Both the position numbers and the translations under genes were made by a program. From a virus (taxonomy: Duplodnaviria > Heunggongvirae > Uroviricota > Caudoviricetes), in IMG/VR virus record IMGVR_UViG_3300028805_000039, positions 191,852 to 239,565 of that record: a stretch of 47,714 bases of DNA; one strand, 5' to 3'. The notes under the pieces were generated by a model. That model was not told the origin of the DNA, searched no databases, and was given only the letters and a program-made list of their open reading frames with translations. Positions 2,769 to 16,453 of the stretch are shown piece after piece. Numbering within the stretch: the stretch's first letter is position 1; each line of letters opens with the position of its first letter.

Positions 2769-2783
2769 CTAAATCGCATACAT

Positions 2784-2858
2784 ACGTTCGTAGTCTAATG
2801 GATAAAACAATTCTCCCCTAAAGAATAATTGTAGGTTCAATTCCTACCGAACGTACCA
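2784..2858 (+). tRNA. tRNA with anticodon CCT (Arg-AGG) as folded; atypical C33, loop CCCCTAA also contains CTA
   Basis: Acceptor ACGTTCG/CGAACGT+A+CCA, anticodon stem ATTCT/AGAAT, T-arm GTAGG-TTCAATT-CCTAC. Confidence 0.55.
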
Positions 2859-2916
2859 ATACTCTATATAAGATTAGGTATAGAGTAAATTTATATTGTA
2901 AAGTGAGGAATTTACA

Positions 2917-3255
2917 ATGGTTATTTATAGTGAAAAACTTAATAAGAAATTTGAAACTGTCGATGAATGCGTAAAAGCAGAACAGGAATATGAGGCAAAA
3001 GTTGCCGCAGAAAAGGCTGCTAAAGAAAAGGCTATTGCTGAAGCTAAGGCACGACAGGAAGCTCTTGTTAATGACCGCAAGACTCGTGCTACTGAAGTTG
3101 AAGATGCCTATAAAGCAGTTGTTGAAGCACAGAAAGTTTATCGCGAGAAACTGAATGCCTTTATTAAGGATTATGGTAGCTTCCATATGACCCTTAAAAC
3201 TGGTGATGGCAATCCTTTTGATCTTTTTCATAGTTTCTTTGAAAACTGGTTTTAA
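2917..3255 (+). CDS. hypothetical coiled-coil protein (112 aa)
   Basis: RBS GAGGAA, ATG 2917; Ala/Lys/Glu-rich. Confidence 0.5.
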   Translation: MVIYSEKLNKKFETVDECVKAEQEYEAKVAAEKAAKEKAIAEAKARQEALVNDRKTRATEVEDAYKAVVEAQKVYREKLNAFIKDYGSFHMTLKTGDGNPFDLFHSFFENWF

Positions 3256-3291
3256 TCTATAAAAAATTGGGGAAGTCCCCCAATTTTATAT

Positions 3292-3365
3292 AGGAGAGTC
3301 GGTTAATGGTAAACCAGCGGTCTCCAAAACCGCGACTGGGGGTTCAAGTCCCTCCTCCCCTGCCA
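3292..3365 (+). tRNA. tRNA-Trp (anticodon CCA)
   Basis: D-arm GGTT-AATGGTA-AACC, anticodon stem GCGGT/ACCGC, loop CTCCAAA, T-loop TTCAAGT, G73+CCA. Confidence 0.7.
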
Positions 3366-3393
3366 TAAAAAATTAAAAAAGGAGTATTTAAAA

Positions 3394-3834
3394 ATGTTAA
3401 AAAAGATTGTTTCTATTTTCCTGGTATTTGTTTTTGCTGTTTTTCTTATGGGATATATTGTTCCAGTAGCAAATGCTGATTATTTTCCTAGTCCAACAAT
3501 AACAGAACATGATATACGGTTGCGGTATTTCCCTGATGTAGCATCTAATCTTTATCGAATTTGTGATAGTGATGGAAATTTAGTACGCTTCATTGAATTT
3601 GAAGATGTGAATTATTCGCTTTTAGATGATTTAAAAAAGATTCCACCTGATGTAAAATTTGCTTTTAATATTGATATTAATACTGAACTTGGTAATAATG
3701 AATATATGGAACTTATTCTTCTTAATGAAAATGAAATTAATGTATATAATAATGGAGTAAAAGTTCCAGTCGAAAAATTTGGTGAGTATAATATTGCGCA
3801 TATTATTGATTCAGGTTTAGTAACAATTAGTTGA
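3394..3834 (+). CDS. secreted/membrane-anchored hypothetical protein (signal peptide)
   Basis: N-terminus MLKKIVSIFLVFVFAVFLMGYIVPVANA. Confidence 0.55.
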   Translation: MLKKIVSIFLVFVFAVFLMGYIVPVANADYFPSPTITEHDIRLRYFPDVASNLYRICDSDGNLVRFIEFEDVNYSLLDDLKKIPPDVKFAFNIDINTELGNNEYMELILLNENEINVYNNGVKVPVEKFGEYNIAHIIDSGLVTIS

Positions 3835-3859
3835 AAATTTTAAAAAAATATTATATAAT
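3831..3859 (+). promoter_or_regulatory. sigma70-like promoter copy 3 (drives tRNA-Lys and downstream genes)
   Basis: TTGAAA 3831-3836, TATAAT 3854-3859, 17-bp spacer. Confidence 0.7.
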
Positions 3860-3904
3860 ATATATGTAAGATAAAGAAAAAGATATTACATATATATTTT
3901 TTAT

Positions 3905-3980
3905 GCATCCATAGCTCAGCTGGTAGAGCAGCGGACTCTTAATCCGAAGGTCGCGGGTTCGAACCCCTCTGGATGCACCA
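3905..3980 (+). tRNA. tRNA-Lys (anticodon CTT)
   Basis: GCATCCA/TGGATGC acceptor, D-arm GCTC-AGCTGGTA-GAGC, loop CTCTTAA, TTCGAAC T-loop, CCA. Confidence 0.8.
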
Positions 3981-4005
3981 TTTAATTATTTCAAGGAGAA
4001 TAAAA

Positions 4006-5082
4006 ATGAATCTTAAATCTTTTTATAAATCTAATGTAAAAATGCTTTATACTAAAAAAGAATTGGATAATTTTAATAATATTTATGTATATTATTATAA
4101 TAAAGTTAATAGTTTTGATGAATTAATATCAAAATTTCCTACAAATTTACATGATATTATTAAATATGAGTTTCATAAACAATTTGAGATTCAAAAAGGT
4201 ATCCAGGGTGGAGTCCTTGTTGAATTAACAATTCTTACAACTATGGCTAACTTTTTTGGTATTTATGATTTTTCTTATGATAATGGGAAATATATTTATG
4301 AAAATGATAAATATATTTTCATTCTTCAAGGGAATTTCGGTCATGGTGGATTAAAAGATGGCAATGATATTAAAATTTTTGACAAAATAGATAATAGATG
4401 GTATAATTGTGAAGTAAAAGAACCTTTTGCTCGTTTTGATGAAATGGATTGGCTTTATACTGAAGAAGGAAAACTTTGTCCTAGTAAGCGAGCAGATAAG
4501 AATAAATTACCATTGTTTTGGCCGATTGCTAATGCGTATAATGCTCATATGAGTGTATTTGATCATATTGGTCATAATTATCCATTAACAGAAGAAATGG
4601 TTAAAGAAATTGTTTCTAATTATTTTGGAAATGTAGATTATATTTTAACATTTACAGAAAAAGATAATTATTTTTTAATAATTCCAAATAATAAAGAAAT
4701 ATTTAGCTTAATTTATTCTTATAAAGGTTCTGAAATTAGAACTGTTAGTGGGAAAAATTTAAAATGTGTTTTTACACCTGTTTATGCCAAAAACGTACTT
4801 GATAAATATCTTATTAAAGAAGATGATAAATATTATTATTTTAATGTTGATGATTTTATCTATACTATTGGTAGACAGAGTTCTAATAAAGGAAGATATA
4901 AATTAATTGAAGGTTTTGCTATTTTGCAAGAAAATGCTATTATTGAAAATAATATTTTAAAGTGTGAAAAAAAGTATTTTAAACAAAATAGCGCTGTTAT
5001 TAGTCCTAAAATTAAACTTATTTCAGATTATAGTAAAATAAAAGATATTATTATACAGGGAGAAGATAGTCTTGACAAATGA
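4006..5082 (+). CDS. putative PD-(D/E)XK nuclease-domain protein; possibly the N-terminal (endonuclease + helical) part of a Type IIG RM enzyme
   Basis: RBS AAGGAG + ATG 4006; ..IFDKIDNRWYNCEVKEPF.. (D..EVK motif); ends TGA 5080-5082, directly followed in the +1 frame by the MTase-domain ORF. Confidence 0.4.
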   Translation: MNLKSFYKSNVKMLYTKKELDNFNNIYVYYYNKVNSFDELISKFPTNLHDIIKYEFHKQFEIQKGIQGGVLVELTILTTMANFFGIYDFSYDNGKYIYENDKYIFILQGNFGHGGLKDGNDIKIFDKIDNRWYNCEVKEPFARFDEMDWLYTEEGKLCPSKRADKNKLPLFWPIANAYNAHMSVFDHIGHNYPLTEEMVKEIVSNYFGNVDYILTFTEKDNYFLIIPNNKEIFSLIYSYKGSEIRTVSGKNLKCVFTPVYAKNVLDKYLIKEDDKYYYFNVDDFIYTIGRQSSNKGRYKLIEGFAILQENAIIENNILKCEKKYFKQNSAVISPKIKLISDYSKIKDIIIQGEDSLDK

Positions 5083-5200
5083 AAAAGAATATCTCGCTTC
5101 TATTAAATAGCGAGGCTTATATTAGACTTGGGAAGATATTTTAAATAATTATTTTCCAAATGAATATTTTAAAGAAGAAACTTTAGGTGGTCTTTATGAG

Positions 5201-6553
5201 ATGGGGCTAGCTGAAGAAAATAAAATTGAAAAAAAGAGTATGGGAAAATATTATACTCCAGATGATGTAGCTAATATTATGGCTTAGTATTTATTAGAAT
5301 TACCTGGTGATAATATTTGTGATTTATGTTGTGGAACAGGAAATTTAACTTTTGCCGTATTAAATTAGATGACTGATGATGAAGCTAAACAATTTATACT
5401 TAATGGTCATTTATATTTATATGATATTGATAATATAGCTATAAAAATTTGTTTAGCTATACTAAAAAATAGATATGGAGATATCGTAGATAATATCCAT
5501 ATTATAAATACAGATTGTTTAAAATCTGATGTTAATTTTCCTGATAATGTTAAAATTATTTCAAATCCTCCATATGGCAAAAATACTGATTTAGTAAATA
5601 ATATTTATAATTGTGCAAAAACTACAAAAGAATTATATGTTGCTTTTATGGAAAAAGCTCTTTATGCTAAAGTTCCATTTGTATTTATAACTCCTCATAG
5701 TTTTTTAGGTGGGAATACTTTTAAAGAGTTACGTAAAGAATTATATGGTGGAAAAATTTTTGCTTTTGATAATGTTCCTGGAAATATTTTTAAAGGTAAA
5801 AAATTTGGTATTTTCAATTCAAATGAAGCAAACTCAACTAGAGCAGCAATTTCTATTTTAAATCCTAATTCTAAGGATATTTATGTTGCTCCTTTTATTA
5901 GATTTAAAACAGAAGAACGTTCAAAAATTTTAAATAAAGAATTTTTAGATACATTGCTACCTGAAAAAGCACAAAGTAATACTGGAAATATCTATTATAG
6001 AATTTAGGCTGGAACAGAAGAAATTATTACTAAATGGTTAGATTCTAAAAATAAAAAATTTAGTAGTTTATTAGTTTCTACTCCTAATGAATATAAAATT
6101 GATATTCCAAATACTTGTAGATATTTTACTACTGGGGCTAAAAAAACTTTATCTAGAAGTGGTAAATTAACTATTTATTGTAAAGATGAAGATAGTTTTT
6201 ATTTAGCATATGCATTTATTAATTCTTCTTTATGTTATTACTGGCATCGAATGTGTAATGGTGGTATTACATATCCAATTACACTTTTGAAGGATATGCC
6301 TATTTTTGGATCAGCAACACAAGAATTAAAAAATTATTGTAATAAACTAATTGAAAATGAAGAAAAATATATAGTTTTAAAGAAAAATGCTGGAGCATAT
6401 TAGGAAAATATTAAATTTCCTATGGAAATGCGTTTTGAATTAACAGATATTCTTTTAAAACAAATAAATTTATCTAATAATATATCTTTAAAAAAGGTAC
6501 ATAATAATAGTTGTTTAACTACAACAATAGATAATATTATAGATGAAGAATAA
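5201..6553 (+). CDS. gamma-class N6-adenine DNA methyltransferase + TRD (Type IIG/HsdM-like), in-frame TAG codons (5288-5290, 5366-5368, 6005-6007, 6401-6403); conserved sequence extends upstream to ~5087 in the same frame without a start codon
   Basis: Motifs GKYYTPDDVANIM (X), DLCCGTGNL (I), ISNPPYGK (IV); HsdM-like LGGLYE upstream of first ATG; ends TAA 6551-6553. Confidence 0.7.
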
Positions 6554-6560
6554 AAAATTA

Positions 6561-6589
6561 TTGACATTTTAAAAAAAATATTATATAAT
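6561..6589 (+). promoter_or_regulatory. sigma70-like promoter copy 4 (TTGACA-17-TATAAT)
   Basis: TTGACA 6561-6566, TATAAT 6584-6589. Confidence 0.7.
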
Positions 6590-6802
6590 ATTTATAGAAA
6601 ATAAATAAAGGCATATACAGCAACCATTATATTTGTAAATTTTTAGAATTAAAATATATAAAAACAATTTTAGAAGCGTGGTTTCTTCTAACGACGATTA
6701 ATAAACTAGATTATTTCTCTAACAAGAGAAACACCGGAGATTTAGTCTTATTAACAGGTAAGTTTCTTTGTGCCTTGTTTTGGGATATTAATTCCCAATT
6801 AT

Positions 6803-6879
6803 GCGGGGTTAGCTCAGCTGGTTAGAGCACATGCCTTACAAGCATGGGGTCACTGGTTCAAGTCCAGTACTCCGCACCA
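6803..6879 (+). tRNA. tRNA-Val (anticodon TAC)
   Basis: GCGGGGT/ACTCCGC, anticodon stem CATGC/GCATG loop CTTACAA, TTCAAGT T-loop, A73+CCA. Confidence 0.8.
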
Positions 6880-6920
6880 GATCAAATTACAGTATCCTAT
6901 GGAACTGTGATATAAATATA

Positions 6921-6981
6921 AAGACTCAAACAGCAATTTTATTGGAATAGTCTGTTAAACTATAATTCAAAAAGAGTCTTG
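6921..6981 (+). ncRNA. small structured RNA element, AAGAC..CAGCAA family (terminal helix AAGACTC/GAGTCTT)
   Basis: Shares 5' AAGAC(A/T)C...ACAGCAA motif with elements at 7152, 10862, 11245. Confidence 0.3.
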
Positions 6982-7006
6982 TGATTTAAATAAAAAAATC
7001 TTTTAT

Positions 7007-7035
7007 TTGAAAAATTTAAAAAAATTTGATATAAT
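7007..7035 (+). promoter_or_regulatory. sigma70-like promoter copy 5 (upstream of tRNA-Pro)
   Basis: TTGAAA 7007-7012, TATAAT 7030-7035. Confidence 0.7.
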
Positions 7036-7073
7036 ATATATATAAAGTTAAGAAATAAATAAAAAATAAATTT

Positions 7074-7149
7074 CGGGGAGTAATTCAGTTGGTAGAATGC
7101 GTGATTTGGGATCACGATGCCGTGGGTTCGAGTCCCGCCTCTCCGACCA
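7074..7149 (+). tRNA. tRNA-Pro (anticodon TGG)
   Basis: CGGGGAG/CTCTCCG, D-arm ATTC-AGTTGGTA-GAAT, anticodon stem CGTGA/TCACG loop TTTGGGA, CCA. Confidence 0.8.
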
Positions 7150-7151
7150 TA

Positions 7152-7219
7152 AGACACATACAGCAACTTTTAAAGATACAATTTTTATGTTATCGGTTCA
7201 AGTCCGATTATGTCAGCCA
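7152..7219 (+). ncRNA. tRNA-like element (AAGACACATACAGCAAC 5' motif, perfect T-arm ATCGG-TTCAAGT-CCGAT, 3' GCCA) lacking a pairing 5' acceptor strand
   Basis: Directly follows tRNA-Pro; possible Y-RNA-like or degenerate tRNA. Confidence 0.3.
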
Positions 7220-7275
7220 TTAATTTGATGTATTATCCAATGGGTAGGATGAAAGAGTATGATGTGTCTAGATAT

Positions 7276-7432
7276 AGCCCCGTGGTGTAAAGGTAGCACA
7301 CTGGACTTGTCGATATGGTGTAATGGAAGCATAATTGAATGCCTCTTGTAATTGAGAGGAGGCGCTAGTTCGATTCTAGCTATCGGCTCCATGACTCCAA
7401 TGGTGTAGGTTCGAATCCTGCCGGGGCTGCCA
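7276..7432 (+). tRNA. tRNA-Gln (anticodon TTG) interrupted between nt 34 and 35 by an 83-nt insert (7309-7391)
   Basis: 5' half AGCCCCG-TG-GTGTAAAGGTAGCAC-A-CTGGA-CTT (7276-7308) and 3' half TGAC-TCCAA-TGGT-GTAGG-TTCGAAT-CCTGC-CGGGGCT-G-CCA (7392-7432) join to a canonical cloverleaf. Confidence 0.6.
7309..7391 (+). tRNA. tRNA-like gene nested inside the tRNA-Gln anticodon loop (identity unclear; possible 8-nt loop TGTAATTG with GTA)
   Basis: Acceptor GTCGATA/TATCGGC + T + CCA, perfect T-arm GCTAG-TTCGATT-CTAGC, D-arm GTG-TAATGGAAG-CAT. Confidence 0.45.
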
Positions 7433-7702
7433 TCCAAAATTAAGAAAGGTTTAAAAGTATGGAAAGATTATATTAGTTACATCATGGTGATGTTTTTACA
7501 GTTTCTGCTGATTTATTTTTAACCACTAATTGGAATGTTGATAATTTTAAATTTATAAAATATAATTTTTATTCTAAACCTTGGTGGAAATTTTGGGAAA
7601 AAAGAAAATTAAAAAATGTTTAGGTAATGTATGTCGGAAATGACACACAAAATAATTATCTTGTAACAAATGAAAAGAAATGTATTGAGGAGTTTTATAA
7701 AA

Positions 7703-7978
7703 ATGATTAGAACTAAAATTCGTTTGGAAACTAATAAAGAAGTTACTGCGTTTGTTAGTAAGTTAAATACTGATGGCAGTATTGATAAGTATATTGTTGA
7801 AGATGAGGAAGGTCGTCATCGTGTAAATGCTCGTTCTTATCTTGGTATGCTTTATGCTTCTGCTGAATTTGCTGGCAATATGTTCCTTGTAAATGAAACT
7901 GAAGATGGTAAGTTTCCTGCTTTTGTTTATGATTTTATGCCATTGAGCGAAAATGATGGAAATTATATCCATGAGTGA
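7703..7978 (+). CDS. hypothetical protein
   Basis: RBS GAGGAG then ATG 7703 (track ORF 7670..7978 same frame). Confidence 0.5.
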   Translation: MIRTKIRLETNKEVTAFVSKLNTDGSIDKYIVEDEEGRHRVNARSYLGMLYASAEFAGNMFLVNETEDGKFPAFVYDFMPLSENDGNYIHE

Positions 7979-8012
7979 TATTAATAATTTTCGTATTCTT
8001 GTTGAATAGGAA

Positions 8013-8129
8013 ATGTTAAAAATGGGAGCTTCTAATAGTGATTTTAGATTCATCCATGATGAAGCTATTATTAATACTATTAGAAGAAATGGCTCCCCTG
8101 AAGATTTAGCTTGGGCTTTATTACAATAA
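8013..8129 (+). CDS. small hypothetical ORF (38 aa)
   Basis: ATG 8013, TAA 8127-8129; weak. Confidence 0.25.
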   Translation: MLKMGASNSDFRFIHDEAIINTIRRNGSPEDLAWALLQ

Positions 8130-8132
8130 TTT

Positions 8133-8206
8133 ACTCCTATCGTATAATGGTAGTATAACTGGCTCTGAACCAGTGGGCCGAGGATCGAAACCTTGTGGGA
8201 GTGCCA
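8133..8206 (+). tRNA. tRNA-Gln (anticodon CTG)
   Basis: ACTCCTA/TGGGAGT, anticodon stem ACTGG/CCAGT loop CTCTGAA, G73+CCA. Confidence 0.7.
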
Positions 8207-8209
8207 GGA

Positions 8210-9080
8210 GTAGCAGGAATGGAAATCCTGTATAAATCTTCAATATGATGTGTCAGGAAGTAGGGTTAGGAGCTCATCTTTTAAAGAGCGATTTGCGGCA
8301 GCTGGGCAAATCCTTGCGCGCAAGCGACACTGACCGGGTTAGGGATTTACCTTGAAAATCTAACAAGATTTTTTCTTGTTGTGAGCCATAAGGTTTTGGC
8401 TTGATATAAACCTAGTGAGGTTTTTACCTCACTTATAATATATCGTGGAAGGCAAAGTAAACGAGCCGCCGTTATAATATGGGTATTGATAAACACCGCA
8501 ACAGCAATTATTTATTTGCTTGGGGAGCCGGTGATAGTTGGTGTAAGTCCAGCCCACGATGCCAGCCCGATTGGGCGGCGTCAATGATAACTAGACGAAA
8601 AATGTTATCTATATCGTAGGTGGGTTTATTAAACTGGCGATGAAGTTGCTTACTGTGGCAGATACAAGGTAAGCCGTTTCCAAAGACGAAATGATGGTAT
8701 GTTGGATAGAATATATTAAATAATGATTATTATCGCAGCTGTCTCACTGTGCTATGTAAATGAAATTCCCTTCTCTTGGTTCTAACATTAGAACTCCAAC
8801 TAATAATGATGAGAAACACTAAATATTTATTTAGAAGTATGGACTAAGGTTGTGGGCAAAAATGATTTTTTATATGTAATTTATTTTCAGAGGGTTAGGC
8901 TATAAATGCGGGATATGATTTGGTGTAATCGCGGGTGCGCACACTAGATACTCTTTTTAGAGTTAGAAGACTTAGGCAAAAACCACCTAAGAATCATAGG
9001 TTCAAGTAGGGCAACCGGAGCTTGGAAAGTTATGAAAATAATTATAATATAGAAAATCATTTTTGTTTTAATAAAAAAAC
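8210..9080 (+). ncRNA. candidate large structured non-coding RNA (ORF-free, GC-enriched, many hairpins, flanked by tRNAs)
   Basis: No ORF >=60 aa on either strand for ~1.4 kb; local GC far above genome background; hairpins e.g. AGTGAGG/CCTCACT, GATAAC/GTTATC. Confidence 0.4.
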
Positions 9081-9086
9081 TTTTAT

Positions 9087-9115
9087 TTGAATTTTATAAA
9101 AAAATATCATATAAT
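9087..9115 (+). promoter_or_regulatory. sigma70-like promoter copy 6
   Basis: TTGAAT 9087-9092, TATAAT 9110-9115. Confidence 0.65.
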
Positions 9116-9154
9116 ATATATGTAAATTAAATAAAAAAAAGGAAATTTAAAAAA

Positions 9155-9427
9155 ATGATTGATTTTAATAATTTAAAGTCTTATAAAGATTATTCTAAAT
9201 TAACTGGTGATGATATTCTTGAATTTATGCAAGAATAGACTAGAGATGATATTGAAGAATTTAAAGAGTTTTGTAAACCTCATACTGAAACTGATGAAAA
9301 TGGAATAACTCATGAATATTAGCCTAGATTTTTTGAAATTCGTAATTGGGTTTTAGATAAATATTATCCAGGTTTAACTACTCCAAAAAAGAATATAAGT
9401 TTTATAGAGCGTATTATGGATTTATAA
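9155..9427 (+). CDS. hypothetical protein (90 aa) with 2 in-frame TAG (9233-9235, 9323-9325)
   Basis: RBS GGAAA.., ATG 9155, TAA 9425-9427; codon-by-codon check. Confidence 0.5.
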
Positions 9428-9447
9428 AAAATTTGATAATTTTTAAA

Positions 9448-9476
9448 TTGATTTTTTATAAAAAAAATGTTATAAT
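9448..9476 (+). promoter_or_regulatory. sigma70-like promoter copy 7
   Basis: TTGATT 9448-9453, TATAAT 9471-9476. Confidence 0.65.
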
Positions 9477-9527
9477 ATATATGTAAATTAAATAAAAAAT
9501 AATTTTTTAGAAAAGGAATTGAATGAA

Positions 9528-9872
9528 ATGAATTATCCCCTGAGTAAGTACCGTTTTTATGAAGCTGGTAATAAGACTATTGCTGTTAGTACTTATGCTG
9601 GTAGACCTGTTCGTGGTATTTCAATTTGCCATGAAAATGATGATTTTAGTCTTGAAACTGGTAAGCTACTCGCGGCAGCACGTTGTAATGAAAAGATTTC
9701 TGCCAAGCGAGTTGCTCGTGCTAATATGAAAGTACGACAGGCACAGGCTGATCTTGAGAAGGCCCAGAAGCACCTTGAAAATATGAAGGCTTATCTAAAT
9801 GATGCAGTTATTGCATATAATGATGCCGGAATTGAAACTGATAAGATTATTGAGTCTCTAAGGGCTAAGTGA
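9528..9872 (+). CDS. hypothetical protein
   Basis: ATG 9528 in frame with track ORF 9519..9872; RBS AAGGA. Confidence 0.5.
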   Translation: MNYPLSKYRFYEAGNKTIAVSTYAGRPVRGISICHENDDFSLETGKLLAAARCNEKISAKRVARANMKVRQAQADLEKAQKHLENMKAYLNDAVIAYNDAGIETDKIIESLRAK

Positions 9873-9878
9873 AAAAAA

Positions 9879-9907
9879 TGCGGATTGATAAAATTTTTCA
9901 ATCCGCA
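9879..9907 (+). terminator. hairpin (TGCGGATTG...CAATCCGCA) after CDS, no strong T-run
   Basis: 9-bp inverted repeat. Confidence 0.35.
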
Positions 9908-9915
9908 GAAAGTAT

Positions 9916-9990
9916 CCTCCCTTGGTGTAATGGTAGCACGGGTGGCTCTAACCCACCAGGCGTTGGTTCGATTCCGAACAGGGAGTGCCA
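9916..9990 (+). tRNA. suppressor tRNA, anticodon CTA (reads UAG); probably Gln-derived
   Basis: Anticodon stem GGTGG/CCACC with loop CTCTAAC (CTA at 9948-9950); D-arm GTG-TAATGGTAG-CAC; T-loop TTCGATT; 3' AGGGAGT-G-CCA resembles the phage tRNA-Gln(CTG) end; acceptor has a C1/T72 mismatch. Confidence 0.7.
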
Positions 9991-9995
9991 TTGGC

Positions 9996-10024
9996 TTGAC
10001 TTTTATTAAAAAATTTGATATAAT
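9996..10024 (+). promoter_or_regulatory. sigma70-like promoter copy 8 (TTGACT-17-TATAAT)
   Basis: TTGACT 9996-10001, TATAAT 10019-10024. Confidence 0.65.
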
Positions 10025-10039
10025 ATATATGTAAATATT

Positions 10040-10260
10040 GCGGATTGGTGCAAAAGTTAACACGTCGGTCTCTGGGGCTATGGTGTAAAAAACATACTTG
10101 GAAAGCAAGGGCCTTGAGAAGTTGGGGCAGTACCAACTAGCTCCACCAAAAACCGAAGAACAGGGGGCGGTACCCTGATCCGCTGCCAACACGATAACAA
10201 ATAAGTGTATAAACGGATATGTGGCTGACGAACCTACTGTCATCTCCCTTCCTATGGTGA
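10040..10260 (+). ncRNA. GC-rich untranslated leader / candidate small RNA downstream of promoter 8
   Basis: ~220 nt without ORF; contains tRNA-like fragments (GGTGTAAA, ...GCTGCCA). Confidence 0.25.
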
Positions 10261-10366
10261 TAAAAAATGTTAAATTAGAATTTAATTTTTGAATTAATTT
10301 TTGCTTTTCCTGTGGTATTGTTTATTATAATATATATTTTTGGAAGCTTTAAGGAATGATATTCAG

Positions 10367-10465
10367 ATGTTAGAAATATTAGATTGGATTTTAATTTTTG
10401 GATTAACTTTTATACTTCCTATTGGATTATTCGTTATATTTGTTTTTAAAAATTTTAAGGAATGA
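10367..10465 (+). CDS. small hydrophobic peptide (32 aa)
   Basis: RBS AAGGAA, MLEILDWILIFGLTFILPIGLFVIFVFKNFKE. Confidence 0.4.
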   Translation: MLEILDWILIFGLTFILPIGLFVIFVFKNFKE

Positions 10466-10470
10466 TTTTT

Positions 10471-10818
10471 ATGTATAGAAAAAGAGCTTGGAGAAGATAT
10501 AAAAATTATATAAAAGCCAAAAGAAAAAGAGATATTGATTTAAATGATCGAATGTGGTGGGATTATTCAATTTATAATAATCCTATTAAACCTAGTTATT
10601 ATTCTCCAAATAGTAAGCCTAAATTTGGAATGTATGATAATCTTCACCAGTACAGTAAAAATAAAATTCATTGTAGTTGTCCTTGGTGTTCTCCACGCAC
10701 TCGTAATAAGGGGCGGCATAGAAATAAAAAGAATTATGCTCCATCTATTAATTATGGAATAATGGATAAACGAAGACAAATGGCAATGGATGATGATGAA
10801 AAAGAATTTTTTAATTGA
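10471..10818 (+). CDS. basic Cys-containing protein (CSCPWCSPR), hypothetical
   Basis: RBS AAGGAA, ATG 10471, TGA 10816-10818. Confidence 0.5.
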   Translation: MYRKRAWRRYKNYIKAKRKRDIDLNDRMWWDYSIYNNPIKPSYYSPNSKPKFGMYDNLHQYSKNKIHCSCPWCSPRTRNKGRHRNKKNYAPSINYGIMDKRRQMAMDDDEKEFFN

Positions 10819-10843
10819 AAATTTTAAAAAAATATTATATAAT
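10815..10843 (+). promoter_or_regulatory. sigma70-like promoter copy 9
   Basis: TTGAAA 10815-10820, TATAAT 10838-10843. Confidence 0.7.
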
Positions 10844-10861
10844 ATTTATAGAAAATAAAAA

Positions 10862-10950
10862 AAGACACGTTCAGCAAGTTATTTATAAATCGACACTTTT
10901 AATAGAAAATTTGATTTAATAGAAAATTTGATTTGTTTTCAAGTGTCTTG
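10862..10950 (+). ncRNA. structured 5' leader element, AAGACAC..CAGCAA family (terminal helix AAGACAC/GTGTCTT, internal 17-nt direct repeat)
   Basis: Lies between promoter 9 and ATG 10962. Confidence 0.3.
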
Positions 10951-10961
10951 AAAGGATATAT

Positions 10962-11231
10962 ATGAAATATGTACATTTTTCTGGTAGCAATGGTTATTGT
11001 GGAACTGATTATGATGAATATGTAATGTTTGATGACGATTGCCCTGAAAATGAAATTGATAATTATTCTACTGAATTAGCATATCAATGTGCTGAATCTT
11101 ATGAATATTTAGAAACTGGTTGGTATGATGATTTCGAAGATGAAGACGATCGTGAAGCATATTATGAAAATGCTTTAAGTTATTGTAGTTGGAATTATTG
11201 TTCTAAAGAAGAATATTTAAGAGGTTTTTGA
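10962..11231 (+). CDS. acidic hypothetical protein (89 aa)
   Basis: ORF, RBS GAAAGGA. Confidence 0.5.
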   Translation: MKYVHFSGSNGYCGTDYDEYVMFDDDCPENEIDNYSTELAYQCAESYEYLETGWYDDFEDEDDREAYYENALSYCSWNYCSKEEYLRGF

Positions 11232-11244
11232 TAAAATAAAATAT

Positions 11245-11356
11245 AGACAGATACAGCAACTTCTTTTTAAAAAGAATTTTAGCATAATGGTAATGCATTT
11301 GACTTGTTAATCAAAATATACGGTTCAAATCCGTGATAACTCTTTTAATCTGTCTA
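11245..11356 (+). ncRNA. tRNA-like structured RNA (terminal 8-bp helix AGACAGAT/ATCTGTCT, D-arm-like AGCATAATGGTAATGC, T-arm TACGG-TTCAAAT-CCGTG); YrlA/Y-RNA-like candidate
   Basis: Not a canonical tRNA (T-arm not adjacent to terminal helix); shares ACAGCAAC motif. Confidence 0.35.
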
Positions 11357-11365
11357 GTTAATATG

Positions 11366-11827
11366 CGGGCGTGGTGGAATAGGTAGACACCAGGGACTTT
11401 AGAGTATAAAGATACAAAGAGCATTAAGGTAGGAAACTCCTTAGATGAATGTTGGCTAATTCGGTGAAAGTCTTACTGAGACAACGCCGAGCTAAATTAA
11501 ATAATGATTTACTATCAATAAATTGAGTAGAGGTCCATATGATAGTAGTGGATAAATAAACAGCCTTTATTCAAGATCATTATTTATAAATGTGTAGAGA
11601 CTATATACTAACCACCTAAACAGAAATGCATGGTGAAAACATAGTCCAGACTACAACATTAAATAATAATCCTCTATCAGTAAATTGAATAGAGACCCAT
11701 ATGATAGTAGTGGGAATCTGCAAAGACTTTATTCAAGATTATTATTTAATGGCTATGGTGACATAGAGTAGTAGGAAAATCCCTTGGTCGAAAGACCGTG
11801 CGAGTTCAAATCTCGCCGCCCGCACCA
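11366..11827 (+). tRNA. tRNA-Leu (anticodon TAA), class II, with ~375-nt group-I-like intron (11401-11775) between U34 and A35
   Basis: 5' exon GCGGGCG-T-GGTG..CACC-AGGGA-CTT; 3' exon AAAA-TCCCT-long variable arm-GCGAG-TTCAAAT-CTCGC-CGCCCGC-A-CCA; intron follows U and ends in G; intron contains GACUA / UAGUCC P7-like pair. Confidence 0.6.
11401..11775 (+). mobile_element. group I-like intron in tRNA-Leu(UAA) anticodon loop (contains two ~95-nt internally duplicated segments)
   Basis: Insertion site identical to the classic cyanobacterial tRNA-Leu intron. Confidence 0.5.
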
Positions 11828-11953
11828 ATATGTTTCTAAATGGCACAATTTGTTGCCAAATTAGAGCCTTTTATTTCTAGTCCGGTTCTAATAGTTTTAC
11901 TCCTTTCCTTTCTGTTTTCTGTGGTCTTTAAAATATAAAGACCACACTTTTAT

Positions 11954-12030
11954 GCGGGTGTAGCTGAGTTGGTTCAAGCACCTGACTTTTAATCAGGGGA
12001 CCGTGGGTTCAAATCCCGCCACCCGCACCA
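11954..12030 (+). tRNA. tRNA-Lys (anticodon TTT)
   Basis: GCGGGTG/CACCCGC, anticodon stem CCTGA/TCAGG loop CTTTTAA, T-arm GTGGG-TTCAAAT-CCCGC, A73+CCA. Confidence 0.8.
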
Positions 12031-12046
12031 TTATAAAAAATTAAGG

Positions 12047-12526
12047 ATGAATAAAATGAAGTTAAGAGAACCTACAAAAGACGACATAGAAAAAGCAGTT
12101 GAATATTTTAAAGAAGTGCAAAAAATTCATACTGATGATAGTTATCGAGATTGGCTTTTATCTTGGGATTTTTCAAAATCAGGGTATGAATCTATTTATG
12201 ATGATGATATTCAATATAGCAAAATCTTAACAGAAGATGAAATTAATAAATTTCTTTTAATTAGTGAATATGAAGCTGATATAACTTGGAGGAATCCTGA
12301 TTATAAAAGTGAATATACTTATGAAGATAAAGATGCTTATTTCCCAACAGTAGTTAATTTGCTTTGTGCCAATGGAGTTTGGTATGAACTTTCTACTATG
12401 TGGGGACAAGGTGCGAGAACAGAATTTTTCCCTATAAAAGATTTTAAGAATTGGGAATATAGAGATAAAGTAAAATATTATTATAATATGATAAAAAAAG
12501 AATGGTATTGTTTAGTTAGAAAATAA
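12047..12526 (+). CDS. hypothetical protein (159 aa)
   Basis: ORF with RBS AAGGA. Confidence 0.5.
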   Translation: MNKMKLREPTKDDIEKAVEYFKEVQKIHTDDSYRDWLLSWDFSKSGYESIYDDDIQYSKILTEDEINKFLLISEYEADITWRNPDYKSEYTYEDKDAYFPTVVNLLCANGVWYELSTMWGQGARTEFFPIKDFKNWEYRDKVKYYYNMIKKEWYCLVRK

Positions 12527-12532
12527 TATTAT

Positions 12533-12561
12533 TTGATTTTTTTTAAAAAATTTGATATAAT
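12533..12561 (+). promoter_or_regulatory. sigma70-like promoter copy 10
   Basis: TTGATT 12533-12538, TATAAT 12556-12561. Confidence 0.65.
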
Positions 12562-12644
12562 ATATATATAAAGTTAAGAAATAAATAAAAAATAAATTTT
12601 CCTCTTGTCCAAGAGGAAACAATGTGAAAAAGGAGAAATAAAAT

Positions 12645-14144
12645 ATGTCTAATTCTTTTATGAATGGTTTGCAGAATGCCACTAATTATGGCTATACTAC
12701 TAATGGTGCTCTTAGTCATAAGACCACTGGTAATGATTTGCTCGATATGTTCGCTCAGGCTGGCGCTTACCGTAGACGCACTGATAATGATTGCATTCTT
12801 CTTTTTAAGAATGCCTATATCGAGAATTCTAAGTATGCTCTTAAGTGTCTCTTCTATATGAGAGATATTCGTGGCGGTCAGGGAGAGCGTCGTTTCTTCC
12901 GTGTATGCTACAAGTGGCTGATTAGTTATGACAAGGCTGCGGCTAAGCGTAATCTTCAGTATATGAGCGAGTATGGTCGCTGGGATGATTTGCTTTATAT
13001 CTGTCAGGGCACTTCTCTTTGGAATGATGCAATGCAGATTGTTCGTTCTCAGCTTATGCTGGATATGGATAGTTGCAATCACAGCGATAAGACCGGTATT
13101 AGTTTGCTGGCTAAGTGGATGCCTAGTGAGAACACTTCTAGTGCTGTAACTAGAACTTTGGCTCATGAGGTTCGTACTGCTCTTGGTTTTAATCATCGTC
13201 AGTATCGTAAGACTCTTTCTGTGCTTCGTGATCGTTTGAACGTTCTTGAACGTTTAATGAGCGCTGGTCGTTGGGATGAAATCGAGTTCGATAAGATTCC
13301 TTCTAAGGCTGGTATGAAGTATAAGAATGCTTTTGCTCGTAGAGACATGATTGCTCAGAAGTATGAAAAGTTCGCTAAGGACGAAAATACTACTGTTAAT
13401 GCAAAGGCTCTCTATCCTTACGAAGTTGTTGAGCAGGCTCGCGCTTGCCGCGGAGCAGTTGACCGTGCTATGATTAATAAGTATTGGGATAATCTTGAAG
13501 ATTATTTCAATGGGGCTACTTTGGATGCTCTTTGCGTCATTGATACTTCTGGTTCTATGACTTGGGGCAGCAATCGTCCTTATCCTATTGATGTAGCAAT
13601 TTCTCTTGGCCTTTATTGTGCTGAAAGAGCCCGCGGTCCTTTCGCTGGGAATTACGTTTCCTTCTCTTCTCGTCCTCAGTTGATTCGTACTGAAGGTATT
13701 GATTTTGTTGATAAGGTATACCGTATCTATCGTACTAATCTTTGCCAGAATACGAACATTGAAGCTACTTTCGATTTGCTTCTTGATACTGCGATTCGTA
13801 ATCGTTGTAAGCAGGAAGATCTTCCTAAGTCTTTGATTGTTATTTCTGATATGCAGTTCGACCAGGCTCGCGGTGCTTATTACGGTGATCGTAGTTATGG
13901 TGTTAGAACTCTTATGGAAAGAATTGAAGGAAAGTGGAACCAGGCTGGATATAAGATGCCTAATCTTGTATTCTGGAATGTAAATGCTACTGCTAATCCT
14001 AATATGCCAATGGAAATGAAGGATGGCGTGTCTTACGTTTCTGGTTGCTCTCCTGTAATTTTCAAGCAGATTCTTACTGGGAAGACTGCGTTCGACCTTA
14101 TGTATGAAGTGCTTGATGCTGAGCGTTATACCGTTATCGGTTAA
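12645..14144 (+). CDS. vWA-domain protein with Ro60/TROVE-like N-terminal region (Rsr-like; or DUF2828-type)
   Basis: MIDAS DTSGSM, ..YVSFSS.., ..LIVISDMQF..; N-terminus TNGALSHKTTGNDLLDMFAQAG resembles Ro60 'NAGG..vsde.rL.rFl.lG'; no TAG. Confidence 0.5.
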   Translation: MSNSFMNGLQNATNYGYTTNGALSHKTTGNDLLDMFAQAGAYRRRTDNDCILLFKNAYIENSKYALKCLFYMRDIRGGQGERRFFRVCYKWLISYDKAAAKRNLQYMSEYGRWDDLLYICQGTSLWNDAMQIVRSQLMLDMDSCNHSDKTGISLLAKWMPSENTSSAVTRTLAHEVRTALGFNHRQYRKTLSVLRDRLNVLERLMSAGRWDEIEFDKIPSKAGMKYKNAFARRDMIAQKYEKFAKDENTTVNAKALYPYEVVEQARACRGAVDRAMINKYWDNLEDYFNGATLDALCVIDTSGSMTWGSNRPYPIDVAISLGLYCAERARGPFAGNYVSFSSRPQLIRTEGIDFVDKVYRIYRTNLCQNTNIEATFDLLLDTAIRNRCKQEDLPKSLIVISDMQFDQARGAYYGDRSYGVRTLMERIEGKWNQAGYKMPNLVFWNVNATANPNMPMEMKDGVSYVSGCSPVIFKQILTGKTAFDLMYEVLDAERYTVIG

Positions 14145-15961: not shown

Positions 15962-16453
15962 ATGAGATTACTCGCATTAGACTAGGCTTCACGAACTACG
16001 GGTTGGGCAATCTTTGATGATGAAGAATTAGTTAATAGTGGAACTTTTACTTTGAAATCTGATGATATTGGAGAACGACTTGTCGATTATAAAAAGCATG
16101 TAGAAAAATTGATTTGTGATAATGATATAGAAGAAGTTGCTTTTGAAGATATTCAAATGTAGAATCAAATAAATAATGTTTAGACTTTTAAAGTTTTAGC
16201 AGAAATATTTGGGGTTACACAAGAATATTTAGTAGAACAAGGTCATTCATATCATGTAGTGAGTTCTAATACTTGGAAATCACAATTAAATATAAAAGGT
16301 AAGCAAAGAGCAGAATAGAAAAAAAATGCTTAGGCTTATGTGTTAGAACATTATAATAAAAAAGTATCTTAGGATGAATCTGATGCTATTTGTATTGGTT
16401 CATGTGTAGTATTACAAAATAAAAAGAAAAAGGCTGACTTCAATTGGGGTTGA
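15962..16453 (+). CDS. RuvC-family Holliday junction resolvase (phage type) with 6 in-frame TAG
   Basis: MRLLALD*ASRTTGWAIF.., ..EVAFEDIQ.., ..DESDAICIG..; TAG at 15983, 16160, 16181, 16316, 16331, 16370; ends TGA 16451-16453; verified codon by codon. Confidence 0.65.

What the first reader, a model, noticed from the sequence alone, without database searches (positions are those of the whole stretch)
6921..11356. Family of small tRNA-like/hairpin elements sharing 5' AAGACAC..ACAGCAA, near a Ro60/TROVE-vWA-like gene
Elements at 6603, 6921-6981, 7152-7219, 8497, 10862-10950 and 11245-11356 share the motif A(A)GAC(A/T)C-N2-4-CAGCAA(C/T)T. Three of them close with a terminal helix (AAGACTC/GAGTCTT, AAGACAC/GTGTCTT, AGACAGAT/ATCTGTCT). 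The 11245 element adds D-arm-like and T-arm-like hairpins. The 7152 element has a perfect T-arm plus GCCA. The protein at 12645-14144 has a vWA MIDAS (DTSGSM) and a Ro60-like N-terminus. Bacterial and phage Rsr (Ro60) genes are known to be accompanied by tRNA-like Y RNAs (YrlA). An alternative reading is that this is a conserved leader/processing motif of the phage early transcripts.
Basis: inference. Interest (0 to 1): 0.55.

Follow-up and report, generated by a model that had tools for sequence, protein, structure and literature searches.

The report
Phage Y-RNA-like family with CAGCAA handle
The six elements are real members of a large, apparently undescribed family of small structured phage RNAs, many of them rearranged tRNA look-alikes, that carry a fixed "handle" and always sit beside a distant relative of the RNA-binding protein Ro60, so they are most likely that protein's partner RNAs.

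Summary
All six elements, not three, are closed by a terminal helix (P1). The 5' strand of P1 (consensus WAAGRYNNNN) is followed directly by an invariant CAGCAA.

The same handle recurs about 170 times in related metagenomic phages. P1 covaries extensively: CAGCAA has an adjacent helix of 8 bp or more in 131 of 319 cases, against 19-26 in controls.

Element 7152-7269 is a circularly permuted tRNA mimic: P1, V hairpin, T arm, a 7-bp closed acceptor hairpin carrying GCCA, then D arm. This is the published YrlA module order, and 21 of 24 pairs show compensatory changes. The other elements carry an anticodon-arm mimic, a normal-order tRNA-like domain, or unrelated folds.

Handle-bearing elements abut this gene in Bacillus, Listeria, Mycobacterium, Salmonella and Vibrio phages. 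In phage LeBron no tRNA gene is nearby.

Best reading: these are Y-RNA-like partners of a divergent phage Ro60. It is a new variant of a known kind, and binding itself is untested.

The parts
6561..6589 (+). Sigma-70-type promoter (TTGACA-17-TATAAT, 12/12). The predicted start lies about 10-15 nt before element 1.
6608..6776 (+). Element 1 (169 nt). P1 is 6608-6615 / 6769-6776 (AAGGCATA/TGTGCCTT) and CAGCAACC is at 6618-6625. The interior is AT-rich hairpins and is not tRNA-like.
6921..6980 (+). Element 2 (60 nt). P1 is 6921-6927 / 6974-6980 and CAGCAATT is at 6931-6938. It has a single hairpin, 6947-6963, with a 7-nt anticodon-like loop CUGUUAA (GUU, Asn-like). It starts 42 nt after tRNA-Val.
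   Evidence: (31.0 bits, E 2e-4)
7152..7269 (+). Element 3 (118 nt), a YrlA-like circularly permuted tRNA mimic. P1 is 7152-7159 / 7262-7269 and CAGCAACT is at 7161-7168. V hairpin 7172-7186; T arm 7192-7208. The acceptor 3' strand plus GCCA is at 7209-7219, the loop follows, and the acceptor 5' strand is at 7226-7232 (7 bp). D arm 7235-7250. It begins 3 nt after tRNA-Pro.
   Evidence: (91.6 bits)
8486..8632 (+). Element 4 (147 nt). P1 carries one bulged A: 8486-8494 + 8496-8499 / 8620-8632. CAGCAATT is at 8502-8509. The interior is G+C-rich with several hairpins (z -3.9). The element lies inside the roughly 830-nt non-coding stretch 8207-9040. Homologs are in L023, L080 and L059.
10815..10843 (+). 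Sigma-70-type promoter (11/12) just upstream of element 5.
10862..10949 (+). Element 5 (88 nt). P1 is 10862-10868 / 10943-10949 and CAGCAAGT is at 10872-10879. The interior holds a 17-nt tandem duplication. The ORF at 10962-11231 starts 13 nt downstream.
   Evidence: z -3.14; 26.2 bits
11244..11356 (+). Element 6 (113 nt). P1 is 11244-11252 / 11348-11356 and CAGCAACT is at 11254-11261. The hairpin at 11262-11275 can alternatively act as an acceptor strand pairing with 11340-11346. D arm 11282-11296; anticodon-like arm 11299-11314 with an 8-nt loop; T arm 11320-11334. This is a normal-order tRNA-like domain enclosed by P1.
   Evidence: tRNA 39.9 bits; 31.4 bits
12533..12561 (+). Promoter-like site (10/12, with TG extension) ahead of the Ro-like gene.
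12645..14144 (+). Ro60-like protein, 499 aa. It has a helical-repeat N-terminal part (about residues 31-288; Pfam DUF2828) and a vWA domain (295-499; Pfam DUF7788) with MIDAS DTSGSM at 300-305. PHROG 850 is annotated 'RNA-binding protein'.

Best explanation
The six elements are small non-coding RNAs of one modular family. Each has a constant handle: a 7-10 bp terminal helix P1 formed by the RNA's two ends, with a conserved base (5'-WAAGRY / RYCUU-3'), followed directly by single-stranded (A)CAGCAA(W)U on the 5' strand. The handle encloses a variable cargo module.

I propose the handle is the docking site for the phage's divergent Ro60-like ring protein (12645-14144). This parallels the way the conserved 5' strand of the terminal stem of Y RNAs and YrlA docks on Ro60/Rsr.

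Cargo modules are mostly tRNA parts:
- a closed-acceptor cloverleaf in circularly permuted order (7152-7269);
- a normal-order tRNA-like domain (11244-11356);
- a lone anticodon-arm mimic (6921-6980);
- other folds.

The RNAs are transcribed from sigma-70-type promoters within the tRNA array. They are probably released by the enzymes that trim the neighbouring tRNAs. Those with a 7-bp acceptor hairpin and an encoded NCCA are probably nicked by RNase P, as M. smegmatis YrlA is.

By analogy with Rsr-YrlA-PNPase and the rsr-yrlBA-rtcBA operon, the RNP would tether the Ro-like ring to tRNA-recognising enzymes or to damaged tRNAs. That would place it in the phage's tRNA repair and counter-defence programme.

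Shown here: the family, the structures, the covariation, the fold similarity of the protein, and the cross-phylum gene-RNA linkage. Inferred: expression as discrete RNAs in this phage, protein binding, and the downstream function.
For: 1. Structure is real.
- CAGCAA on the gene strand has an adjacent P1 of 7 bp or more in 345/657 cases, against 105/521 on the other strand and about 20-25% for control words.
- Among 319 non-redundant CAGCAAHY sites, P1 is 8 bp or longer in 131, against 19 (upstream control) and 26 (shuffled). P1 is 9 bp or longer in 73, against 7 and 8.
- P1 sequences differ while staying complementary.

2. YrlA-like architecture.
- RNAalifold on 23 class-A elements finds P1, T arm, a 7-bp acceptor hairpin and D arm on its own. 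21 of 24 pairs carry compensatory changes.
- 95.8% of cells are paired, against 68.8% in shuffles and 28-44% when the partner is slid. The covariation score is 0.773 against 0.226, with 0 of 500 shuffles reaching it.
- The module order equals that of YrlA (PMC4201824).

3. The protein is Ro60-like. Homologs are annotated 'Ro-like RNA binding protein' in mycobacteriophages. HHpred gives Rsr as the top match for Listeria phage CKA15_055 (PMC12282133).

4. Linkage.
- 49 of 55 DUF2828-anchored loci of 15 kb or more carry at least one strict element on the gene strand. The totals are 211 elements on that strand and 25 on the opposite strand.
- An unbiased IMG/VR scan for AAGACNNNNACAGCAATT gave 27 loci with P1. 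All have tRNAs and/or a DUF2828 gene in the short locus. Of the 53 hits without P1, 45 have neither.

5. Cross-phylum conservation next to the gene.
- PBC2 has 7 or more copies.
- LP-125 and CKA15 have 3 tandem copies between a sigA-type promoter and the gene.
- LeBron has 3 copies in the 360-nt gap after gp53, with no tRNA nearby.
- UAB_Phi87 has 4 copies and KVP40 has 4-5.
- A covariance model built only from metagenomic copies finds PBC2 (89.4 and 60.5 bits), UAB_Phi87 (59.7), LeBron (54.2) and KVP40 (33.4).

6. Context. The window also encodes an RNA ligase, a Thg1-like enzyme, a P-loop kinase, phosphoesterases and a weak RlaP-like match. LP-125 has RtcB and an RNA ligase just downstream.
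Against: - No experiment shows binding or expression for this phage.
- The protein has no sequence-level similarity to Ro60. Pfam TROVE is absent, and phmmer and a profile hmmsearch against PDB sequences find no Ro60.
- The model is only moderate (pLDDT 75). TM-scores to Ro60 are 0.36-0.41, and ring closure was not verified.
- The RNA motif differs from the Ro60-contact motif GNCGAA, and no Rfam Y-RNA model matches.
- Most elements sit inside tRNA arrays, so linkage to tRNAs and linkage to the gene are confounded everywhere except LeBron and, partly, Listeria phages.
- My P1 detection selects for complementarity, so P1 covariation counts are inflated. The controls are the fair measure.
Confidence: 0.62

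Rival explanations
1. The handle is a punctuation, processing or stabilising cassette of polycistronic tRNA transcripts. It would be recognised by a host or phage RNase or repair enzyme and be functionally independent of the Ro-like protein.
For: - 43 of 170 elements start within 9 nt of an upstream CCA.
- Window element 3 starts 3 nt after tRNA-Pro, and many elements are followed about 8 nt later by the next tRNA.
- 24 of 27 unbiased P1-positive loci contain tRNAs.
Against: - LeBron has three elements beside gp53 and no tRNA within 8 kb.
- Listeria phages have three tandem copies with their own promoter directly before the gene.
- CAGCAA is invariant in phages of hosts that use different RNA-processing enzymes. 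That the hosts differ in this way (RNase E versus RNase Y/J) is established knowledge, not tested here.
- A processing signal would not need a tRNA-like cargo with conserved T- and D-loop nucleotides.
Confidence: 0.13
2. The elements are permuted or split tRNA genes. After RNase P and 3' processing in the acceptor loop, possibly with ligation by the phage RNA ligase, they would yield chargeable tRNAs or spare tRNA parts, with P1 acting as a clamp or intron-like helix.
For: - Discriminator plus CCA is encoded directly after the acceptor 3' strand in many copies. The window has GCCA at 7216-7219, and others have ACCA or GCCA.
- The acceptor hairpins are 7 bp, which is the RNase P determinant noted for M. 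smegmatis YrlA.
- Classes B and C keep 5-bp/7-nt anticodon arms (GUU, GAU, UAA, GUA).
- The window encodes an RNA ligase and a Thg1-like enzyme.
Against: - Class A, including 7152-7269, has no anticodon arm.
- The short elements lack T and D arms and an acceptor.
- The same handle encloses modules that are not tRNA-like (6608, 8486, 10862).
- The phage already encodes ordinary tRNAs.
- No bulge-helix-bulge or other splice signal is evident.
Confidence: 0.08
3. The handle is a cis-acting leader, for example an antitermination or translational control element of early transcripts.
For: - Elements 1 and 5 lie about 10-15 nt after strong promoters.
- Element 5 ends 13 nt before an ORF, with AAAGGA in between.
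Against: - Only 2 of the 6 window copies follow a promoter and only 1 precedes an ORF.
- Most family members lie between tRNAs.
- tRNA-mimic cargo is not expected in a leader.
Confidence: 0.05
4. The element acts at the DNA level, as a miniature mobile element or a recombination or replication hairpin with inverted ends.
For: It has inverted termini and is present in many copies with a variable interior.
Against: - The termini covary rather than being conserved.
- The elements are strictly on the transcribed strand: 211 against 25.
- The interiors keep RNA-specific tRNA features (GGTTCRAnYC T loop, GG in the D loop), with compensatory changes in four helices.
Confidence: 0.02

Closest known systems
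YrlA / YrlB, bacterial and mycobacteriophage Y RNAs bound by Rsr (Chen et al. 2014, PMC4201824; Wang et al. 2018, bioRxiv 10.1101/312249)
   Same: - They are encoded within a few kb of a Ro60-type gene, on the same strand.
- The 5' and 3' ends pair, and a short conserved motif lies on the 5' strand.
- At least one RNA per genome carries a tRNA-like domain in the order V, T, closed acceptor hairpin, D. Shorter companions lack it, as YrlB does.
- A 7-bp acceptor hairpin suits RNase P, as in M. smegmatis YrlA.
   Different: - The motif is (A)CAGCAA(W)U, not GNCGAAN0-1G, and no Rfam model matches.
- The partner protein is DUF2828, not Pfam TROVE.
- There are 3 to more than 7 copies per genome, interleaved with tRNA genes.
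- The cargo is more varied: at least four circular permutations of the cloverleaf, lone anticodon-arm mimics and unrelated folds.
- NCCA is often encoded in the acceptor loop rather than added.
Thermus phage phiLo Ro60 with Yrl1/Yrl2 (Hu et al. 2025, PMC12135203)
   Different: phiLo Ro60 is a canonical TROVE protein. Its RNAs were picked by the CGAA motif and have a stem-bulge-stem shape. No tRNA array or CAGCAA handle is described.
Metazoan Y RNAs
   Same: Modular design: a terminal stem that binds Ro60, mainly through its 5' strand, plus a variable module that recruits other factors.
   Different: Their helix motif is different (GGUCCGA with a bulged helix). They have no tRNA-like domain and are Pol III transcripts.
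Phage T4 stable RNAs 'species 1 and 2' (rnaC/rnaD) in the tRNA cluster (from memory, not checked here)
   Same: Small stable RNAs of unknown function, co-transcribed and co-processed with phage tRNAs.
   Different: I know of no handle motif or Ro-like partner for them.
Circularly permuted tRNA genes of Cyanidioschyzon merolae and two-piece permuted tmRNA (from memory; the reviews PMC4090602 and PMC3400036 were listed but not read)
   Same: The 3' tRNA half is encoded before the 5' half, with the acceptor ends joined by a short linker.
   Different: Those mature into functional tRNA or tmRNA through defined splicing or processing. Here many members lack an anticodon arm, and the termini form a conserved protein-handle-like helix.

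Membership tests
YrlA / Y RNA (Chen 2014; Rfam Y-RNA families) | Encoded within about 4 kb of the Ro60-type gene, on the same strand | tested here: met
   The window elements lie 1.3-6 kb upstream, on the same strand. They sit directly beside the gene in LeBron, LP-125/CKA15 and UAB_Phi87.
YrlA / Y RNA (Chen 2014; Rfam Y-RNA families) | The 5' and 3' ends pair to form a terminal stem | tested here: met
   P1 is present in all six elements. Family-wide enrichment is shown against controls.
YrlA / Y RNA (Chen 2014; Rfam Y-RNA families) | Conserved GNCGAAN0-1G (CGAA) Ro60-contact motif near the 5' end | tested here: not met
   The invariant motif is CAGCAA, followed by A/U then U. No GNCGAA occurs at that position.
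YrlA / Y RNA (Chen 2014; Rfam Y-RNA families) | tRNA-like domain in the order V, T, acceptor-like hairpin, D | tested here: met
   Met for 7152-7269 and 22 homologs, with covariation. Not met by elements 1, 2, 4 and 5, which would be YrlB-like.
YrlA / Y RNA (Chen 2014; Rfam Y-RNA families) | Match to an Rfam covariance model of a Y-RNA family | tested here: not met
   No Y_RNA or YrlA hit at gathering score, or at E up to 10, even on a 141-nt slice.
YrlA / Y RNA (Chen 2014; Rfam Y-RNA families) | Physical association with the Ro60-type protein; tRNA-type modifications; RNase P cleavage | not testable with these tools
   Needs RIP, EMSA, primer extension or end mapping.
Ro60 / Rsr (TROVE) proteins | Pfam TROVE domain (PF05731) or sequence similarity to Ro60 | tested here: not met
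   Pfam gives DUF7788 (7e-41) and DUF2828 (1.8e-28), with no TROVE at E up to 1. PDB sequence searches find no Ro60.
Ro60 / Rsr (TROVE) proteins | Helical-repeat domain followed by a vWA domain with a MIDAS motif | tested here: met
   DSSP on the AF2 model shows helices at 31-288 and an alpha/beta domain at 295-499. DTSGSM is invariant.
Ro60 / Rsr (TROVE) proteins | Overall fold closest to solved Ro60 structures; closed ring | tested here: inconclusive
Canonical tRNA | Cloverleaf with free paired 5'/3' acceptor ends and a 7-nt anticodon loop | tested here: not met
   In 7152-7269 the acceptor is closed by a loop, the order is permuted and there is no anticodon arm. 11273-11342 passes the Rfam tRNA score (39.9 against 29) but has an 8-nt loop, a 6-bp acceptor, no CCA, and is enclosed by P1.
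Promoter-proximal cis-regulatory leader (nut/put-like) | Located between a promoter and the regulated genes in most copies | tested here: not met
   Only 2 of the 6 window copies follow a promoter. Most family members lie between tRNAs.

The most novel reading that the evidence does not exclude
The P1-CAGCAA handle is a universal adaptor. It loads a genome-encoded library of tRNA-part mimics onto a Ro-like ring. The mimics include anticodon arms of Lys, Asn, Ile, Leu and Tyr type and closed-acceptor cloverleaves opened at four different junctions. In a Listeria phage the Ro-like protein is present in virions. The result would be an RNA-programmed decoy or sensor array against host defences that cut or deplete tRNAs. 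Some members would be nicked by RNase P into CCA-ended two-piece tRNAs that stay clamped by P1.
Probability: 0.2. Interest if true: 0.9.

Novelty: new variant of a known kind. Interest (0 to 1): 0.72.

Why it matters
The Ro-like DUF2828 protein (PHROG 850) is found in 711 GenBank phage records, including Felix O1-like, P100/A511-like, KVP40-like and cluster L mycobacteriophages. The metagenomic protein search returned 8000 homologs, which is that search's candidate cap.

Two recent studies could only guess at its RNA partners:
- very abundant unassigned RNAs near the gene in Listeria phage CKA15 (PMC12282133);
- 'some tRNA genes may be Y RNAs' for Bas63 gp130, which counters the ppl defence (PMC11482910).

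A defined handle (P1 plus CAGCAA) and a covariance model now say exactly which sequences to test. They can be tested in culturable phages of E. coli, Salmonella, Listeria, Bacillus, Vibrio and Mycobacterium.

The finding would also:
- show that Ro60-Y RNA partnerships extend to a second, sequence-unrelated-looking protein clade with its own RNA code;
- explain many 'pseudo-tRNA' or unannotated gaps in phage tRNA arrays;
- link Ro-type RNPs to phage tRNA repair and counter-defence.

Tried and rejected
**Searches that gave nothing**
- Rfam at gathering score and at E up to 10 gave only tRNAs and noise. There was no YrlA, Y_RNA, GOLLD, ROOL, ribozyme or riboswitch hit.
- A DNA similarity search of GenBank phages with 6400-12700 matched only tRNA genes.
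- phmmer and a profile hmmsearch of the protein against PDB sequences found no Ro60. NCBIfam gave no hit.
- A literature search for 'DUF2828' found only unrelated plant and tardigrade papers. Searches for Ro-like/phage/Y RNA, permuted tRNA/phage, and Ro60/anticodon nuclease found no description of the CAGCAA handle. Subscription-only papers are not covered.

**Readings considered from memory and dropped**
- Retron msr with a1/a2 repeats and a branching G in an AGC context: I looked for no reverse transcriptase, but the many copies per genome and the tRNA-like cargo argue against it.
- Integron attC-like hairpins: the elements are strand-specific and have RNA-type covariation.
- A promoter for a phage RNA polymerase, or an RNase E site: neither would require a covarying 3' partner.
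- Small self-cleaving ribozymes: no Rfam hit.
- A cobalamin-riboswitch or RNase P-like reading of the 8486 interior: no Rfam support.

**Attempts that did not resolve**
- I tried to map the CKA15 'highly transcribed unannotated regions' onto the three tandem elements (OR088597 about 25279-25553, minus strand). The text and the small supplement give no coordinates. CKA15_059-061 is a separate RNA of about 570 nt.
- One collection scan failed for too few specified bases.
- Two fold calls failed on length.

Full report
**1. What is in the window**

The window is about 30% G+C phage DNA. Positions 1361-12030 carry 11 ARAGORN tRNA genes, all on the + strand, including a CUA suppressor tRNA. In-frame TAG codons are confined to the genes at about 15962-31297. 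Strong sigma-70-type promoters punctuate the region.

- The 17-mer AGACACATACAGCAACT with up to 3 mismatches finds five sites, against 0.11 expected.
- The sixth copy, at 8497, is more diverged.

All six elements, not three, are closed by a helix whose 5' strand ends 1-4 nt before CAGCAA. The six are 6608-6776, 6921-6980, 7152-7269, 8486-8632, 10862-10949 and 11244-11356. Unconstrained MFE folds recover this helix in every case.

**2. The family**

The 499-aa protein at 12645-14144 was used as a probe and returned 80 related loci from IMG/VR phages of 45-400 kb. In these loci the handle recurs about 170 times in non-redundant form.
- The 5' consensus is WAAGRYNNNN-(A)CAGCAA-(A/U)U.
- The 3' consensus is an A-rich run, then NNNNRYCUU, followed by G-UU.
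- P1 sequences differ freely but stay complementary.

Fair controls for the closing helix:
- CAGCAA on the gene strand has an adjacent helix of 7 bp or more in 345/657 cases. The figure is 105/521 on the other strand and about 20-25% for scrambled control words.
- Of 319 non-redundant CAGCAAHY sites, 131 have a helix of 8 bp or more. The same 5' strands tested against upstream sequence give 19, and against shuffled downstream sequence 26.
- For helices of 9 bp or more the counts are 73, against 7 and 8.

**3. Cargo modules**

- *Short elements (50-80 nt).* These hold one hairpin. It is often a 5-bp stem with a 7-nt loop that reads like an anticodon loop. CUUUUAA is common, and window element 2 has CUGUUAA.
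- *The largest class (105-135 nt).* This is a tRNA cloverleaf whose acceptor stem is closed by a small loop. The chain is opened elsewhere, and that is where P1 sits.
  - Class A has V hairpin, T arm, acceptor hairpin and D arm, and no anticodon arm. Window 7152-7269 belongs here.
  - Class B adds an anticodon arm after the D arm (GUU, GAU, UAA).
  - Class C opens between the D and anticodon arms. It is Tyr-like, with a GUA anticodon and a long variable arm.
  - A fourth arrangement keeps the normal order D, anticodon, T inside P1. Window 11244-11356 is of this kind.
- *Encoded CCA.* Many acceptor loops begin with discriminator plus CCA directly after the 3' strand. In the window this reads TATGTCA-GCCA-TTAATT-TGATGTA, at 7209-7232.

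For 23 class-A sequences, RNAalifold on a MAFFT alignment independently returns P1 (8 bp), T arm (5 bp with a 7-nt loop), acceptor hairpin (7 bp) and D arm (4 bp). 21 of 24 pairs show compensatory changes.

Pair counting gives:
- 95.8% of cells paired, against 68.8% in shuffles and 28-44% when partners are slid;
- a covariation score of 0.773 against 0.226, reached by 0 of 500 shuffles.

**4. Comparison with YrlA**

Chen et al. 2014 (PMC4201824) describe YrlA as follows:
- a short conserved motif (GNCGAAN0-1G) near the 5' end, the presumed Ro60 contact;
- then V, T, an acceptor-like stem-loop and D;
- the two ends of the RNA paired.

The same paper reports that YrlA is encoded within 4 kb of rsr on the same strand. 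Ro60 mainly contacts the 5' strand. Shorter YrlB RNAs share the motif but lack the tRNA-like domain. M. smegmatis YrlA, the only one with a 7-bp acceptor stem, is cut by RNase P and receives CCA.

Window element 3 and its class reproduce this architecture point by point. The difference is the motif, CAGCAA rather than GNCGAA. No Rfam Y-RNA model matches.

**5. The protein**

- Pfam assigns DUF7788 (vWA-type, 7e-41) and DUF2828 (1.8e-28), not TROVE. PHROG 850 is annotated 'RNA-binding protein'.
- An AF2 model built from 30 homologs (pLDDT 75) has a helical-repeat N-terminal part and a vWA domain. The MIDAS motif DTSGSM is invariant.
- Foldseek against the PDB lists seven Ro60/Rsr entries first, aligned over the full length (E 9e-7 to 4e-4, TM 0.36-0.41).
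- Sequence-level searches do not see Ro60.

The protein is therefore a distant, fold-level relative of Ro60. Ring closure was not checked.

**6. Linkage of RNA and gene**

- Among 55 DUF2828-anchored loci of 15 kb or more, 49 carry at least one strict element (P1 of 8 bp or more) on the gene strand. The totals are 211 elements on that strand and 25 on the opposite strand.
- An unbiased scan of IMG/VR for AAGACNNNNACAGCAATT returned 80 loci.
  - 27 have a P1. All 27 contain tRNA genes (24) and/or a DUF2828 homolog (9) within the short stretch held.
  - 53 have no P1 call. Of these, 45 have neither.
- tblastn finds the protein in 711 GenBank phage records at 30-41% identity.

In every lineage I opened, handle elements lie next to the gene on its strand:

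| Phage | Finding |
|---|---|
| Bacillus phage PBC2 | 7 or more copies in the tRNA array just upstream |
| Listeria phages LP-125 and CKA15 | three tandem copies between a TTGACA-17-TATCAT promoter and the gene; RtcB and an RNA ligase downstream |
| Mycobacteriophage LeBron | three copies fill the 360-nt gap after gp53 ('Ro-like RNA binding protein'); no tRNA gene within 8 kb |
| Salmonella phage UAB_Phi87 (Felixounavirus) | four copies |
| Vibrio phage KVP40 | four to five copies |

A covariance model built only from the metagenomic class-A copies finds full-length matches in PBC2 (89.4 and 60.5 bits), UAB_Phi87 (59.7 bits, E 3e-11), LeBron (54.2 bits, E 7e-10) and KVP40 (33.4 bits). It also finds the other window elements at lower scores.

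CAGCAA stays invariant across hosts that range from AT-rich Firmicutes to mycobacteria. This points to a conserved ligand, and the one constant neighbour is the Ro-like gene.

**7. Mechanism proposed**

*Shown here:* a modular RNA family with a constant handle and tRNA-mimic cargo; a Ro60-fold protein; tight gene-RNA linkage across phyla.

*Inferred:*
- The handle docks on the Ro-like protein, as Y-RNA stems dock on Ro60.
- The RNAs are released from tRNA-array transcripts by tRNA-end processing.
- Members with a 7-bp acceptor hairpin and an encoded NCCA are nicked by RNase P.
- The cargo tethers the ring to tRNA-recognising factors or competes with tRNAs for them.

*Context that fits:*
- The window also encodes an RNA ligase (36639-37907), a Thg1-like enzyme (41927-42718), a P-loop kinase (31732-32265), phosphoesterases and a weak RlaP-like match.
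- In Salmonella, rsr-yrlBA sits with rtcBA.
- LeBron encodes an RNA ligase and a polynucleotide kinase.
- Bas63 gp130, a Felixounavirus homolog by family placement, is reported to counter the ppl defence (PMC11482910).
- CKA15_055 is found in virions (PMC12282133).

**8. Rival readings**

- *tRNA-operon punctuation signal.* It explains the placement but not LeBron or the Listeria arrangement.
- *Functional permuted tRNA genes.* It explains the encoded CCA and the anticodon arms. It does not explain class A, the short elements, or the cargo that is not tRNA-like.
- *Leader element.* It fits only 2 of the 6 window copies.
- *DNA-level element.* It is contradicted by the strand bias and by RNA-type covariation.

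**9. Novelty**

Already in the literature:
- Y RNAs beside Ro60 genes, including in some phages.
- The Ro60-likeness of this phage protein, noted in annotations and by HHpred or structure comparison.
- Two papers speculating that nearby RNAs or 'tRNAs' might be Y RNAs.

I found no description of the CAGCAA handle, of the permuted-cloverleaf repertoire, or of the family's breadth in the searchable library. Subscription-only papers are not covered.

I therefore rate this a new variant of a known kind. It is not a member of the Rfam YrlA family: two defining features were tested and not met. It very probably works like that family.

Noticed in passing
window 7276-7429: A tRNA appears to be nested in the anticodon loop of another tRNA. 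Rfam tRNA scores 48.6 bits, spanning 154 nt end to end. The insert (about 7307-7389) itself has a 7-bp acceptor, a T arm and ..TCCA.
   Followed up: partly
window 10040-10190: A second composite. The outer tRNA-like ends (..GATCCGCTGCCA) enclose an inner tRNA-like unit ending ..CTCCACCA. There are weak sub-threshold tmRNA-type hits at 10121-10173.
   Followed up: no
window 8207-9040: A non-coding stretch of about 830 nt, richer in G+C than its surroundings, lies after tRNA-Gln and contains handle element 4. It has no Rfam hit and only patchy similarity to L023, L080 and L059. Listeria phage CKA15 has a hyper-abundant RNA of about 570 nt (CKA15_059-061; up to 67% of phage reads per PMC12282133) at a comparable place (L204 2310-2900).
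   Followed up: partly
window 11366-11827: tRNA-Leu is interrupted in its anticodon loop by an insert of about 375 nt. The 5' half is 11366-11401 and the 3' half about 11778-11827. The insert carries an internal direct repeat of about 70 nt (11511-11580 and 11676-11745). Rfam does not recognise it as a group I intron.
   Followed up: no
window 9917-9986 and 15962-31297: A suppressor tRNA with a CUA anticodon is present. In-frame TAG codons are frequent (up to 22 per gene) in one block of genes and absent from the tRNA-array genes. This is stop-codon recoding restricted to that block; the block's genes were not annotated here.
   Followed up: partly
window 31732-32265, 32480-33049, 36639-37907, 39530-40420, 41927-42718, 43188-44057, 45931-46800: An RNA-repair-type gene set: P-loop kinase (AAA_33), two metallophosphoesterases, RNA ligase with a PHA02142 OB-fold domain, Band 7/SPFH, Thg1-like tRNA 5'-end enzyme, and a weak RlaP-like nucleotidyltransferase match.
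   Followed up: partly
L081 7611-7732 (Bacillus phage PBC2): The best cross-lineage covariance-model hit (89.4 bits) carries CAGCUA instead of CAGCAA. The motif therefore tolerates at least this change, and my regex-based counts miss such copies.
   Followed up: no
L084 9720-10520 (Salmonella phage UAB_Phi87): All four Felixounavirus elements share an extended prefix cAGAAGACC before the spacer and CAGCAA, and end ..GGTCTGG. This is a lineage-specific version of the handle base.
   Followed up: no
window 1662-2768 and 5201-6553: An AAA+/STAND-like ATPase and an N6-adenine methyltransferase (with 4 in-frame TAG codons) are interspersed with the tRNA genes.
   Followed up: no
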